Shown piece by piece: positions 47,244 through 64,000 of a stretch of 64,000 nucleotides of DNA. Where the stretch lies: positions 11,359 to 75,358 of the IMG/VR virus record IMGVR_UViG_3300021387_001438. One strand, 5' to 3'. Positions within the stretch are counted from its first letter, which is position 1, and the number at the start of each line of letters is the position of its first letter. The DNA is from a virus. Its lineage: Duplodnaviria > Caudoviricetes. The notes beneath the pieces were generated by a model. That model had not been told where the DNA came from. It searched no databases and worked only from the letters and a program-made list of their open reading frames with translations. The position numbers were made by a program, and so were the translations under genes.

Positions 47244-47786
47244 TTAATATCCTTCAAAATAAAGTTCAATTCCTTCATTTAATTCAAGGCAAGCTTTACT
47301 AAACTTACCTTCATAATGTAGATTTTTAAATCCTATCAAATTAATTAATCTTACTCCAATAAATAAATATGAGCGAGTATATACATCTATCATACAAGAC
47401 GTTACTTCATTTATGCTTTTTCCTTGTATATACTGACGTGTGAAATTTGCAGTAGGAATACATCCTGGATTAACAACTGTTAATAGAGAATCCCATTTAC
47501 TACAATCATAATCACTATCTTTTGGTTCACGCTTTAAATATTTTAGAGTAAATTCATTATCTTTTTTAGCCTTTTTTGTAAAGTATTCCTCAGTTTCAAT
47601 AATATATTTATCTATTGCTTCAAGTATAGGAGCTAATTCCTTAATTTTAAACTTTTCAAAACAACTCTCTTCATCAACAATACATCCTTGTCTTTTTAAT
47701 TCTTCTAGAAATTGCTTAGGACACTCATTGTTACCAAATAATTGTTCTTTATGTTCTCCACATATTGCATAAATTCTATAACTCAT
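47244..47786 (-). CDS. Hypothetical protein
   Basis: AAGGTGA RBS. Confidence 0.6.
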   Translation of the reverse strand: MSYRIYAICGEHKEQLFGNNECPKQFLEELKRQGCIVDEESCFEKFKIKELAPILEAIDKYIIETEEYFTKKAKKDNEFTLKYLKREPKDSDYDCSKWDSLLTVVNPGCIPTANFTRQYIQGKSINEVTSCMIDVYTRSYLFIGVRLINLIGFKNLHYEGKFSKACLELNEGIELYFEGY

Positions 47787-48692: not shown

Positions 48693-49433
48693 TTATAAAT
48701 TCTCACAAATCCAATTATGACAGATAGTTGTATCAACAATTACCTCTGATTCATTACGAGCTTCATAGCATGCCAAGATAGCATCTGGATTTGTAATGAC
48801 CATTTTATATAATTTTGGATTTGTATTATTTCCAGCTTTATTAAATCTTTCAGCAAACCATCTTGCTTTTTCTTTATCAACAGTCCATGATAAACCTTCA
48901 GGCTTTCCATTATGACTTACTCCTCGATAGACAGTTACTCCTGCTGGAAGTGAAGCAAGTCTTTTTAGAGTATTAAATGTATCAATCTCTTTTTTATCCA
49001 TCAAGAAATCTTTATTTGCTTTTTTGAAATATCTTATTAGTTCTCTTCTATTTACATTATTATCTTGATTTGGCCATTCTTCCATTACATAGAATTCAGA
49101 TAATAGCTTTGAAAAATCTTCATTAGATAAATAGATATTAACATATTTGAAGAAAGTCAAGTAATAACTTTTATTTAACAACATGACAATTCCAAACAAA
49201 TCTTTTGCATTATCAATCTTTTCAAATGTTTCAGACTTAAAGATTTCATAATCCTCTTTTTTATATAAATCTAAAATTTTTGGATTATCTTGATTTTCTT
49301 TTACTGATACATATAAATTATTACTTGTAAACGGATGTTGAATTATAAAAGGAATTTTTGTTGCTTTAATTGGCACTGCCAAAAATAGCAACTTACTCAT
49401 TTCTTTAATCTTATCTAAATTAGTTTGTTTCAT
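48693..49433 (-). CDS. Putative ADP-ribosyltransferase-fold protein
   Basis: R-S-E triad-like motifs VYRG, LSWT, NESEV; AAGGAG RBS. Confidence 0.55.
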   Translation of the reverse strand: MKQTNLDKIKEMSKLLFLAVPIKATKIPFIIQHPFTSNNLYVSVKENQDNPKILDLYKKEDYEIFKSETFEKIDNAKDLFGIVMLLNKSYYLTFFKYVNIYLSNEDFSKLLSEFYVMEEWPNQDNNVNRRELIRYFKKANKDFLMDKKEIDTFNTLKRLASLPAGVTVYRGVSHNGKPEGLSWTVDKEKARWFAERFNKAGNNTNPKLYKMVITNPDAILACYEARNESEVIVDTTICHNWICENL

Positions 49434-49461: not shown

Positions 49462-50084
49462 TTGCCTCTACCATACACTAGCTCACTTTGCCTACACACT
49501 ACCATACTCGACTCTACCATAACATGACTGCCTGTTACTTTACCATAACTGGTCTACTCCTCGCTTTGCCGAAACTTCACTTTACTAAACCTTACCTTTG
49601 CATTTCAAATCTTGACTTCGCCCATACGATATTATGCTGGACCCAACGTCACCGATACATTGTTACACCAATCTTTGCCTAAACTAGGATGTACTATACA
49701 ATTCCAAAACGGTACCATAAATTGCTTTGCCTAAGCTCCACGATGCAAGACTTTACCAATACTCTACCTTACGTCACTAGACTTCACCTTGACAATACCA
49801 TGTCTTACTTTACCACAACTAAACACTAATTAACTTCGGTCCACTTTGCCTTGACTAAACTTATCTACACCGATACTGTTTATTAGTCTACTATACTGTA
49901 CCTCTACCTTACCAAACTTTACCATAGCACGACCAATCCTTACATCACCTTCACTAAACTTAATGGCACTTTACTTTTCCGTAACATAACCTTTCAAGAC
50001 TATGCCAATGCACAACTTCTCTTTAATACACTTTGCCAAAACGCCACCCTACCAATCTTGACTTATCCATTACAAGACGAGGCC
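49462..50084 (-). ncRNA. 5-nt periodic NGY-NN repeat array (putative guide RNA array), downstream of the RAMP gene
   Basis: Minus strand e.g. AGT-tt-AGT-gaa-GGT-ga-TGT-aa-GGA-tt-GGT-cg-TGC-tat-GGT-aa-AGT-tt-GGT-aa-GGT; GY steps of 5,6,5,5,5,5,6,5,5,5,6; no minus-strand ORF of 60 aa or more in the track. Confidence 0.75.
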
Positions 50085-50120
50085 TATACTTTATTTAATA
50101 TATATTAATATAGGATTGAA

Positions 50121-50143
50121 GGAGAGAGACTAAATCTCTCTCC
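50121..50143 (-). promoter_or_regulatory. Hairpin spanning the stop codon of the RAMP gene
   Basis: GGAGAGAGA / TCTCTCTCC perfect 9-bp inverted repeat with a 5-nt loop containing the TAG. Confidence 0.6.
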
Positions 50144-50720
50144 AACTGAATGAACCCTTACCGGAATTACGCCACTGAAGAAGTCCATTGAATTTTCCAT
50201 AATCTAACCATTCTTTAATTAATGGTAGGTCTTCATCACACAACATAACAATCTTAAATTTACATGTTGCACCGGCAGCAATTTCTTCAGAAATAGCAAG
50301 CGAGATTCTTTCACCCTGCATTGTTTGACATCTTAGAGGTCTCTGACATTCTGTGATTTCAGAATAATTCTCAATCACATTTTCTCTTCCTTCAACAAAT
50401 ACTCTTAGGTCAATATGCTTCTTGAAGGCTTTTAATTGACTAGATAGAGTACCTTTAACTTTTGATAGTGCTGAACATGCAGACTTGAAGAATCCTTTTA
50501 ACTGATAGTCATAAATAAATGGCTTACCATCTTTGGTTCTTGGAAAGAATGTTTTACCTTTATCAACAACATTATCTTTTCCAATGGCTTCAATCTCTTC
50601 TTCTAGCTTCTGAGCATCTGGAGCCTTACTACCGATGAATGAACGATATACATCTTTATCTCCTGTTTGAGTTCCTAATAAACCCTGTAAAAAAGTTACT
50701 TCAATATTTAATGTTTTCAT
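50130..50720 (-). CDS. Stand-alone Cas7/RAMP-like protein (Vipr-like), 196 aa
   Basis: TAAGGAG RBS supports MKTLNIEV at 50720; RAMP hallmarks LNIEVTFLQGLLGT, GKPFIYDYQLKGFFK and the G-rich loop YGKFNGLLQWRNSGKGSF. Confidence 0.75.
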   Translation of the reverse strand: MKTLNIEVTFLQGLLGTQTGDKDVYRSFIGSKAPDAQKLEEEIEAIGKDNVVDKGKTFFPRTKDGKPFIYDYQLKGFFKSACSALSKVKGTLSSQLKAFKKHIDLRVFVEGRENVIENYSEITECQRPLRCQTMQGERISLAISEEIAAGATCKFKIVMLCDEDLPLIKEWLDYGKFNGLLQWRNSGKGSFSWREI

Positions 50721-50802
50721 AATTTGTTTTAATCTCCTTAATTTATTATTTGTTTTAATCTTCTGAATTTTTTGGTCTTCACATCTTGGATAATCTACAT
50801 CT

Positions 50803-51103
50803 TTTGCCAATGCCATACAAAACCACACTTTACCATTACCGGACCGGACAATACTTTTCCATTGCACTTTTGGACAATACTTTACCAACACGACAGCCAA
50901 CTATTCTATGCTGGTACTTTACCAACACTGTTCCAAGCTATTCCATTACAGTACCATACCAAACCTTACCAACACTCCACTGAACAAGGCCTTGCCGTCA
51001 CAAATCTTTTCTTGGTATCACATCACCATCACAAAACCACGCTTTACCATTACCGTCACAACGCCACACCTCACCGTCACAACGCCACACATCACCGATA
51101 CTT
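50803..51103 (-). ncRNA. 5-nt periodic NGY-NN repeat array, upstream of the RAMP gene
   Basis: Minus strand GGT-ga-TGT-gt-GGC-gt-TGT-gac-GGT-ga-GGT-gt-GGC-gt-TGT-gac-GGT; steps 5,5,5,6,5,5,5,6; internal 21- and 26-bp period duplications. Confidence 0.75.
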
Positions 51104-63575: not shown

Positions 63576-63611
63576 TTTTTCTCACTTTCTGTTTTATAGA
63601 CTATGCTGTCT
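63576..63611 (-). repeat. 36-bp leader repeat, copy 2
   Basis: Identical to 62934-62969. Confidence 0.9.
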
Positions 63612-63655
63612 GATTTTAAAGACTTTACTGTCTGATTTTAAAGACTTTACTGTCT
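63606..63655. repeat. Tandem repeat, 22 bp x2 plus partial
   Basis: CTGTCTGATTTTAAAGACTTTA at 63606 and 63628, then CTGTCT. Confidence 0.9.
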
Positions 63656-63739
63656 TATTTGTTTAGTATAGGGGGCCCCGGGGGCTATACTATTTATATA
63701 ATAAAAAATGACTTAAGTTTGATTTAAGTCATTCATTAT

Positions 63740-63975
63740 TATTTACAATTTTATTATACAATATTTTTTGATTATTCAAAATCGCAAAATATTATATTTT
63801 AATTTTAATTAAGAATTTTGTCTCTTAATTATTTACAACTTTATTATATTATAATTTGATAATATTTAAAATCGCAAAATTTTATATTTTAATTTTTTTG
63901 ATTTTTAAAAGTTGTTTCTTATTTATTTTCAACTTTATTATATTATATTTTTATAATATTTAAAATCGCAAGATA
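63740..63975 (-). promoter_or_regulatory. Three tandem ~90-bp units carrying early promoters
   Basis: AAAATCGCAA at 63778, 63868 and 63962; on the minus strand two units read TTGCGA-18 nt-TATAAT. Confidence 0.65.
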
Positions 63976-64000
63976 AGATATATTTTTAAATTTCAAATTT

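What the first reader, a model, noticed from the sequence alone, without database searches (positions are those of the whole stretch)
49462..51103. Candidate minimal RNA-guided system: lone Cas7/RAMP-like gene between two 5-nt periodic NGY-NN arrays
Seen: a 196-aa gene with RAMP motifs has a ~300-nt array upstream and a ~620-nt array downstream, both on its own strand. Each array is a conserved triplet (GGT, GGC, AGT, TGT, AGC) alternating with a variable dinucleotide. No other cas gene and no repeat-spacer array was found in the window. Established: Cas7 oligomerises along guide RNA with a fixed nucleotide step. Inference: each protomer binds one triplet and presents the NN bases, so the guide encodes a non-contiguous target. 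From memory, this matches the recently reported phage VIPR systems (GGY/NN RNAs, anti-phage targeting); I cannot verify that here. This instance stands out for its relaxed NGY triplets, regular 6-nt steps and two arrays.
Basis: partly seen in the sequence, partly recalled or inferred. Interest (0 to 1): 0.96.

Follow-up and report, generated by a model that had tools for sequence, protein, structure and literature searches.

The report
Phage VIPR locus with short-block guide arrays
A 75-kb gut phage carries a VIPR system, a small Cas7-like protein flanked by two arrays of 5-base guide-RNA repeats; this kind of system was first described in 2026 preprints, so it is a real new example of a known kind rather than a new one.

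Summary
A 196-aa gene (50130-50720, minus strand) lies between two same-strand tracts built from 5-nt units [N-G-Y-n-n]. These are the only such tracts in the complete 75.4-kb phage genome (lag-5 G autocorrelation z = 7.4 and 9.2 against shuffles). The protein folds as a minimal Cas7/Csm3-type RAMP (VIA-align Z 13.0; Foldseek E 5.5e-8). Its family profile aligns over its full length with the profile of the reference Vipr of phage SUSP1 (hhalign E 7.2e-5). Of 165 homologous loci, 145 carry a periodic tract of at least 200 nt on the gene's strand, but no neighbouring gene is shared.

This is a VIPR system, described in bioRxiv preprints from April to October 2026.

Only the G at position 2 is invariant. 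Units are grouped in blocks of mostly 5-7, followed by one extra base. This block layout probably equals the paper's "staggered arrays with 1-nt overlapping vrRNAs". Blocks are gained and lost as whole modules between related phages.

No target, accessory (vap) gene, ribozyme, 3' tail, CRISPR array or cas gene was found. Verdict: a new member of a known kind, of moderate interest. The open point is how blocks that specify only 10-14 nt achieve specificity.

The parts
50130..50720 (-). vipr gene: 196-aa minimal single-RRM RAMP (Cas7/Csm3-like) protein. It has a C-terminal glycine-rich loop (G-x-x-Q-W-R-N-S-G-x-G-x-F) and a poorly modelled thumb (about residues 128-141).
   Evidence: The AF2 model has pLDDT 77.9 and pTM 0.73. 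Foldseek against the PDB puts type VII Cas7 8z4j_J first at E 5.5e-8, followed by Csm3 chains. VIA-align gives Z 13.0 to Csm3 9g9a_D (rmsd 3.0, 150 residues aligned). hhalign to the SUSP1 Vipr clade profile gives E 7.2e-5 over 178 columns. The family holds 3927 proteins in one search and 1592 clusters at 50% identity in another.
50803..51103 (-). Upstream vrRNA array: 58 pentamer units [N-G-Y-n-n] with 15 single-base steps. It includes a 21-nt block duplicated in tandem (51048-51097).
   Evidence: Supported (z = 7.4) and TRF. A near-identical phage contig (L083) has one extra in-phase 5-nt unit here.
49462..50084 (-). Downstream vrRNA array: 121 pentamer units with 22 single-base steps, giving about 22 blocks of mostly 5 units plus 1 nt (26 nt). 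Each block starts with GGY, and most start with GGY-AA-AGY.
   Evidence: Supported (z = 9.2). The motif GGYAAAG occurs 10 times in this tract and 4 times in the upstream tract.
50085..50129 (-). AT-rich spacer of 45 nt between the vipr stop codon and the first block of the downstream array.
50721..50802 (-). Short leader between the upstream array and vipr, holding the AAGGAG ribosome-binding site.

Best explanation
This is a VIPR (Viral Interference Programmable Repeat) system carried by a complete 75.4-kb tailed phage.

Shown here:
- The 196-aa protein is a minimal Cas7-type RAMP related to the reference Vipr of phage SUSP1.
- It is flanked on its own strand by two C-poor arrays of pentamers in which G at position 2 is nearly invariant and positions 4-5 are hypervariable.
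- The gene-plus-array pair is the only module conserved across about 150 homologous loci.
- The arrays are divided into blocks of mostly 5-7 units. Each block starts with GG and ends with NGY-AA plus one non-G base. Related phages gain, lose or swap blocks as whole modules.

Inferred from the published SUSP1 work:
- The arrays are transcribed with the surrounding minus-strand operon.
- One Vipr protomer binds per pentamer, sequestering the N-G-Y bases and presenting the NN pairs.
- The ribonucleoprotein pairs with double-stranded DNA of a competing phage, prophage or satellite, skipping every third target base.
- Binding silences transcription.

My own inference on the extra base: successive blocks lie in frames staggered by 1 nt. 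The first G of each GG is the terminal G anchor of the previous block's filament. Each block is therefore a closed short guide of 5-7 NN pairs, about one filament turn. Specificity would need several blocks acting on one target genome.
For: Fold:
- AF2 model with pLDDT 77.9.
- The top PDB matches are all Cas7-family backbones: Foldseek E 5.5e-8 (type VII Cas7) and 4.6e-7 (a type III-A Csm complex chain); VIA-align Z 13.0 and 12.9 to Csm3, 11.2 to Cmr4.
- A family profile hits the Csm4 glycine-rich loop at E 0.005.
- The top hit among viral models is a 55%-identical phage protein named 'Cas system-associated RAMP superfamily protein'.

Link to Vipr:
- The SUSP1 locus was located and shows vipr between GGY/NN arrays.
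- The profile-profile alignment is full length at E 7.2e-5 and places SUSP1 D177-W178-R179 on Q182-W183-R184.

Arrays:
-.
- Same-strand arrays lie beside homologs in 79/80 IMG/VR loci. Tracts of at least 200 nt occur in 145/165 loci.
- Block grammar over 1264 blocks: lengths 5, 6 and 7 occur 359, 330 and 286 times. The first unit has G at 93% and 95% of positions 1 and 2. Internal units have G at position 1 in only 20-36%.

Modular turnover:
- Shared block orders with whole-block gains and losses among related phages.
- L084/L085 and L086 encode the identical protein but share only one block.

Locus content:
- No other conserved neighbour gene.
- Phage context shown by terminase, capsid, protease and DNA polymerase genes.
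- No excess of self-targeting: 51 perfect block matches against 58.6 +/- 9.2 in shuffles. The paper also found no self-targets.

Against: - No transcript, processing or binding data exist for this clade.
- No natural target was found under the 1-nt skip rule or seven other pairing models.
- The profile link to SUSP1 Vipr is only moderate (hhalign probability 63%).
- The locus lacks the 3' tail or pseudoknot and the 9-16-unit guides of the characterised type II systems. It also lacks a vap gene.
- A 5-unit block specifies only 10 nt. The phage's own genome already holds about 17 perfect chance matches to 5-unit blocks. Independent short guides acting by the simple rule would therefore be poorly specific.
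- I could not view the paper's figure S18, so the equivalence with 'staggered arrays' is inferred from its legend only.
Confidence: 0.88

Rival explanations
1. It is an RNA-guided RAMP system, but with a different reading code or target from SUSP1 VIPR. One version is RNA targeting, as in the type III and type VII Cas7 backbones that are its nearest solved structures. Another is a code in which the free position 1 (and perhaps position 3) of each unit also pairs with the target.
For: The closest solved folds are RNA-targeting backbones: Csm3, Cmr4, gRAMP and type VII Cas7. Positions 1 and 3 are far less constrained than in SUSP1. The profile alignment puts Gln182 where SUSP1 has Asp177, a residue that contacts G1. 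The NN pairs alone give each block too little information.
Against: No pairing model, including those that use position 1 or 3, gave more matches than shuffled controls in 3.5 Mb of related phage DNA, so nothing positively supports another code. W183 and R184 of the glycine-rich loop are kept. All seven published VIPR types are described as using the same pentamer logic.
Confidence: 0.08
2. The periodic tracts act as DNA rather than as RNA. They could be binding sites, iterons or recombination substrates for the RAMP-like protein or another factor.
For: No promoter or terminator signal above background flanks the tracts. No RNA family matches them. In-phase unit and block duplications are also typical of DNA repeat dynamics.
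Against: The strand asymmetry is strict. The arrays are about 10% C and 30-34% G on the gene's strand. They lie on the gene's strand in nearly every locus. The partner protein has an RNA-binding RAMP fold with a glycine-rich loop. In SUSP1 the equivalent tracts are transcribed and co-purify with Vipr.
Confidence: 0.03
3. Each whole array, or several adjacent blocks, is read as one long continuous guide against one contiguous target. In this view the extra base is simply looped out.
For: It would solve the specificity problem of 10-14-nt blocks. The arrays have no tails, ribozymes or terminators between blocks.
Against: Related phages gain and lose blocks as independent modules and reorder them. 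Block ends carry conserved start and end signatures. Sliding windows of 8-12 units across block junctions, with 0 or 1 extra target base, gave only chance-level matches in the phage's own genome. This is a variant of the main reading, not an alternative to VIPR.
Confidence: 0.12

Closest known systems
Type II VIPR of Escherichia phage SUSP1 (Vipr ALH47069.1, vap1, four vrRNAs); bioRxiv 10.64898/2026.04.26.720920 and 10.64898/2026.04.26.720927
   Same: Both have a protein of about 195 aa with a minimal RAMP fold and a C-terminal G-x-G-(D/Q)-W-R glycine-rich loop. Both are phage-encoded. Both have same-strand pentamer arrays on each side of the gene, with a conserved G-containing triplet and hypervariable NN. 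Neither has a CRISPR array or other cas genes.
   Different: SUSP1 has strict GGY, 9-16 uninterrupted units per guide, a conserved 3' tail with a pseudoknot, separate transcripts of about 100 nt, and a vap1 gene. This locus has N-G-Y units, blocks of 4-7 units joined by one base, no tail and no vap. Protein similarity is visible only at profile level.
'Staggered vrRNA arrays' and YNNNG/NNNNG repeat variants noted in the VIPR discovery paper (fig. S18 legend and methods)
   Same: In the paper's framing (Y-N-N-G-G) the unit here reads Y-N-N-N-G. Adjacent blocks lie in frames offset by one base, and the first G of GG is shared. [quoted passage not shown]
   Different: I could not see the figure or the type assignment, so the identity is inferred. 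The paper says that only the ribozyme-interspersed and single-vrRNA architectures were confirmed by small-RNA sequencing, so staggered arrays remain uncharacterised experimentally.
Non-canonical VIPR array clusters (e.g. WGT/NN, TGH/NN) from the Evo-PIN intergenic atlas, bioRxiv 10.64898/2026.10.21.760802
   Same: Both are 5-nt periodic arrays with a degenerate fixed triplet next to a Vipr-like fold.
   Different: That work reports about 10 repeats per array and does not mention a block level. Whether this clade is among its 99 clusters is unknown.
CRISPR class 1 backbone subunits (Csm3, Cmr4, type VII Cas7)
   Same: These are the best structural matches: an RRM core, a thumb and a glycine-rich loop, with oligomerisation along a guide at a fixed step.
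   Different: This locus has no repeat-spacer array, no Cas5, Cas6 or large subunit, and no adaptation genes. The step is 5 nt rather than 6 nt. The guide information is non-contiguous.

Membership tests
VIPR system | Vipr protein: small single-RRM RAMP with a glycine-rich loop and a thumb | tested here: met
   AF2 model. Foldseek E 5.5e-8 to type VII Cas7, with Csm3 chains following. VIA-align Z 13.0, rmsd 3.0, 150 residues aligned. The glycine-rich-loop profile hits Csm4 at E 0.005.
VIPR system | Sequence relationship to reference Vipr proteins (SUSP1 / X1U2U4 clade) | tested here: met
   hhalign of the family profile A3 against the SUSP1-clade profile A2 gives E 7.2e-5, probability 63% and 178 collinear columns, with DWR aligned to QWR. 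The support is moderate. A single-sequence comparison gave only E 0.032.
VIPR system | Same-strand flanking arrays of pentanucleotide repeats with a conserved G-containing triplet and hypervariable NN | tested here: met
   The motif is the degenerate N-G-Y (Y-N-N-N-G in the paper's framing), not the canonical GGY.
VIPR system | The protein-array association is conserved among homologs | tested here: met
   79/80 IMG/VR loci. 145/165 loci have tracts of at least 200 nt.
VIPR system | No CRISPR array and no other cas genes; a minimal locus | tested here: met
VIPR system | Accessory vap gene next to vipr (typical, six vap families) | tested here: not met
   No neighbouring gene of the window is shared beyond the closest relatives. 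Clustering of neighbour ORFs gave no family that includes the window. The paper names six vap families for seven types, so a vap may not be obligatory.
VIPR system | vrRNAs are expressed and co-purify with Vipr | not testable with these tools
   This needs small-RNA sequencing and a pull-down.
VIPR system | Targets follow the 1-nt skip (NNx) rule and lie in competing mobile elements | tested here: inconclusive
   No enrichment over shuffled controls in the phage's own genome, in 3.5 Mb of related loci or in IMG/VR hits. The blocks are too short for a database search to be decisive.
Type II VIPR (SUSP1-like architecture) | Guides of 9-16 uninterrupted units capped by a conserved structured 3' tail | tested here: not met
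   The blocks have 4-7 units. No conserved tail lies between blocks. No RNA family hit was found.
CRISPR-Cas (class 1) | Repeat-spacer array plus Cas5/Cas6/large subunit or adaptation genes | tested here: not met
   No repeat-spacer array in the 75-kb genome. No cas hits among the tested neighbours.

The most novel reading that the evidence does not exclude
The block grammar may be a functionally distinct VIPR mode. Each array would encode some 15-22 closed, one-turn mini-guides of 5-7 NN pairs (10-14 specified bases). None of these is specific alone. Target choice would then come from many short filaments of one array acting together on one competitor genome, or from extra pairing by the unconstrained position 1. 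Either would differ from the single long guide of the characterised type II systems.
Probability: 0.25. Interest if true: 0.7.

Novelty: new member of a known kind. Interest (0 to 1): 0.42.

Why it matters
VIPR is a newly described RNA-guided DNA-recognition system, proposed to predate CRISPR. This locus adds a clean, complete example in a non-temperate-looking 75-kb gut phage. It belongs to a very large, mostly gut Clostridia-associated clade (at least 1592 clusters at 50% identity). All published experiments concern type II systems with long, tailed guides. This clade has degenerate units, no tail, no vap and short abutting blocks. It is therefore a good test case for three questions: how guides are delimited without a ribozyme or Cas6, how many units are needed for specific binding, and whether position 1 carries information. 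The locus is about 1.7 kb, small enough to move into a reporter assay directly.

Tried and rejected
1. Family libraries. Pfam, PHROGs, NCBIfam and PADLOC gave no hit for the protein.
2. Similar DNA in GenBank phages. None was found. Translated search found only four unannotated gut phage records.
3. Solved Vipr structures. None surfaced in the PDB copies, by sequence profile or by Foldseek or VIA-align fold search, so no direct superposition was possible.
4. Target search.
   - Windows of 8-12 units across block junctions, with 0 or 1 extra target base, gave chance-level matches in the phage's own genome.
   - Five-unit seeds from 1069 blocks, with skips of 0-3, were searched against 2 Mb of related loci. 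There was no excess except the trivial self-match at skip 3.
   - The window's 31 blocks were searched against 3.5 Mb. There was no excess.
   - The only 7-unit block was used as a 14-base pattern in IMG/VR. It gave more than 113 scattered hits. The 80 fetched hit loci showed no outstanding enrichment for other blocks.
   - Eight pairing models, including models that use positions 1 or 3, showed no excess.
5. The NN dinucleotide spectrum was compared with codon positions in the phage's own ORFs. It did not discriminate between frames.
6. Neighbouring genes as vap candidates. The 105-aa upstream gene and the 246-aa downstream gene are not conserved with vipr. ESM Atlas gave no usable lead for the first and only a weak ADP-ribosyltransferase lead for the second.
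7. Promoter and terminator scans were at or below background. Rfam gave no ribozyme.
8. Host. There are no tRNAs and no close named phage relative. The only indication is that homologs lie mostly in gut Clostridia MAG contigs.
9. The reading of the tracts as coding sequence was rejected. The ORFs inside them are by-products of the repeat.

Full report
THE SEQUENCE

On the minus strand, a 196-aa ORF (50720 to 50130, ATG preceded by AAGGAG) lies between two non-coding tracts. The upstream tract (51103-50803) begins 5 nt past the stop codon of a 105-aa gene. The downstream tract (50084-49462) ends at the ribosome-binding site of a 246-aa gene. The three features therefore fill a gap in a long run of minus-strand genes.

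The lag-5 autocorrelation of G is 0.448 upstream and 0.355 downstream. In 1000 dinucleotide-preserving shuffles the mean was 0.00 (sd 0.061 and 0.039), giving z = 7.4 and 9.2. A scan of both strands of the whole genome finds this periodicity only here.

A dynamic-programming parse gives 58 and 121 units of the form N-G-Y-n-n:
- Position 2 is G in 55/57 and 107/120 units.
- Position 3 is a pyrimidine in 50/57 and 104/120 units.
- Position 1 is G, A or T.
- Positions 4-5 are variable.

On this strand the tracts are C-poor (10%) and G-rich (30-34%).

A SECOND LEVEL OF ORDER

The parse needs 15 and 22 single-base insertions, and each falls just before a GGY. The arrays are therefore strings of blocks of mostly 5 units (range 4-7) plus one base, about 26 nt each. 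Many blocks start with GGY-AA-AGY (14 copies of GGYAAAG).

The same grammar holds across the protein family. In 83 arrays and 1264 blocks, lengths of 5, 6 and 7 units occur 359, 330 and 286 times. Other features of the blocks:
- The first unit is G (93%), G (95%), A/C/T, A (84%), A/T.
- Internal units keep only G at position 2 (95-98%). G at position 1 falls to 20-36%.
- The last unit is N-G-Y (94% pyrimidine) followed mostly by AA.
- The spacer base is non-G in 90% of cases.

My reading is that successive blocks lie in frames staggered by one base. The first G of each GG would serve as the final G anchor of the preceding frame. This fits the cryo-EM finding that each NN pair is clamped between the triplet on its 5' side and the next protomer's site on its 3' side. 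This reading is an inference.

THE PROTEIN

No curated family matches it. An AlphaFold2 model built from 33 homologs has pLDDT 77.9 and pTM 0.73. The low-confidence segments are 21-52 (a helical insertion) and 130-140 (the thumb).

- Foldseek against the PDB gives only Cas7-family backbones at the top: type VII Cas7 8z4j_J at E 5.5e-8 and the type III-A Csm complex chain 6ifl_F at E 4.6e-7.
- VIA-align against 48,161 chains gives Csm3 9g9a_D at Z 13.0 (rmsd 3.0, 150 aligned), Csm3 6ae2_B at Z 12.9, Cmr-beta, gRAMP, type VII Cas7 at Z 12.0 and Cmr4 at Z 11.2.
- The family profile hits the glycine-rich loop of Csm4 at E 0.005.
- Among viral models the best match is a 55%-identical protein named 'Cas system-associated RAMP superfamily protein', followed by weaker hits that include two archaeal-virus proteins.

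The family is large. One search gave 3927 proteins. An exhaustive search gave 1592 clusters at 50% identity.

LINK TO VIPR

The literature search shows that VIPR is real. The discovery paper describes:
- a Vipr RAMP of about 20 kD;
- vrRNAs made of YNNGG repeats;
- a rule in which NN pairs read double-stranded DNA while skipping every third base;
- transcriptional silencing of competing phages and satellites;
- seven types, with variant repeats (NNNGG, YNNNG, NNNNG) and variant array layouts, including 'staggered arrays with overlapping vrRNAs'.

I located the reference locus in phage SUSP1 (KT454805.2). It has a 195-aa gene and a 146-aa gene between intergenic tracts full of GGY/NN repeats.

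A single-sequence comparison with my family profile was weak (E 0.032). I then built a SUSP1-clade profile from 37 sequences and a broader profile of this family from 42 sequences. Their hhalign comparison gives E 7.2e-5, probability 63% and 178 collinear columns from the first strand to the C-terminus. It places SUSP1 D177-W178-R179 on Q182-W183-R184.

In SUSP1, D177 (with H17) contacts G1, W178 stacks on G2, and R179 helps hold Y3. Here W183 and R184 are kept, and the G1-contacting Asp is Gln in at least 90% of the family. This matches the loss of conservation at position 1. It is a correlation between two clades, not a test.

CONSERVATION OF THE MODULE

In 79 of 80 IMG/VR loci that encode a homolog, a G-periodic tract lies on the gene's strand directly beside it. 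With genome-derived loci added, 145 of 165 loci have a tract of at least 200 nt. Most of the remainder are short contigs.

None of the window's neighbouring genes is shared beyond the closest relatives. Clustering of neighbour ORFs gave no family that includes the window. I therefore find no vap gene.

The arrays evolve as cassettes:
- Related phages share runs of blocks in the same order, with whole blocks present or absent.
- L084/L085 and L086 encode the identical protein yet share only one block.
- A near-identical contig (L083) differs from the window by one in-phase 5-nt unit.
- The upstream array carries a tandem 21-nt block duplication.

GENOME AND HOST

The window belongs to a single 75,358-bp contig with a 107-bp terminal overlap, so the genome is probably complete and circularly permuted. 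Its GC content is 29.5%. It encodes a head protease, major capsid protein, large terminase, DNA polymerase, primase, helicase and recombination nucleases. It has no tRNAs and no close named relative. Homologs in genome collections lie mostly on phage-sized contigs binned with gut Oscillospiraceae, Lachnospiraceae and other Clostridia.

WHAT I COULD NOT SHOW

No target was found. The own genome shows no excess of block matches: 51 perfect matches against 58.6 +/- 9.2 for shuffled unit order. This agrees with the absence of self-targeting reported for other VIPRs.

The same count shows that a 5-unit block (10 specified bases) matches the 75-kb genome about 17 times by chance. Independent short guides under the simple rule would therefore be poorly specific.

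Searches of 2-3.5 Mb of related phage DNA under eight pairing models gave no excess. An IMG/VR scan with the only 14-base block gave more than 113 scattered hits. No ribozyme, tail, promoter or terminator marks the blocks, so how guides are delimited is unknown.

VERDICT

The system is a member of the VIPR kind published in 2026, not a new kind.

Its degenerate triplet and 6-nt steps are traits of its clade. The degenerate triplets are noted in the literature. The 6-nt steps probably correspond to the paper's staggered arrays, although I could not view the figure to confirm this.

What remains open, and gives the locus moderate interest, is the function of short abutting blocks without a tail or vap. 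This architecture has no published experiments.

Noticed in passing
window 48693-49433 (-): The 246-aa gene just downstream of the array belongs to phrog_4776 (unknown function). Its C-terminal half has an R...S-x-T...E-x-E-like pattern. The nearest named ESM Atlas cluster is an ADP-ribosyltransferase (DRAT) family at the low score of 0.87. This is a weak lead that it may be a phage ADP-ribosyltransferase. It is not conserved next to vipr.
   Followed up: partly
window 63584-63975: Two tandem repeats lie in an AT-rich non-coding stretch: 22 nt x 3.5 copies (63584-63660) and 94 nt x 2.6 copies (63738-63975). They could be origin or iteron-like elements.
   Followed up: no
genome G000, both ends (the contig's last bases are window 63894-64000): The last 107 bases of the 75,358-bp contig repeat its first 107 bases. 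The contig therefore looks like a complete, circularly assembled phage genome.
   Followed up: partly
window 47244-47786 (-): A 180-aa ORF gives a short PADLOC hit to the DRT-associated model RTasMBL (E 2e-6, residues 39-97 only). Its meaning is unclear.
   Followed up: no
L084:6596-6880 and L086:819-1091: In the 75%-identical relatives, a 90-94-aa gene follows vipr directly and precedes the array. The window has no counterpart. This could be a clade-specific accessory gene.
   Followed up: no
L162 and L165 (Porcincola intestinalis isolate genome): One cultured isolate genome carries two distant homologs of the gene (36-37% identity) on different contigs. This is a possible laboratory entry point for this family.
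   Followed up: no
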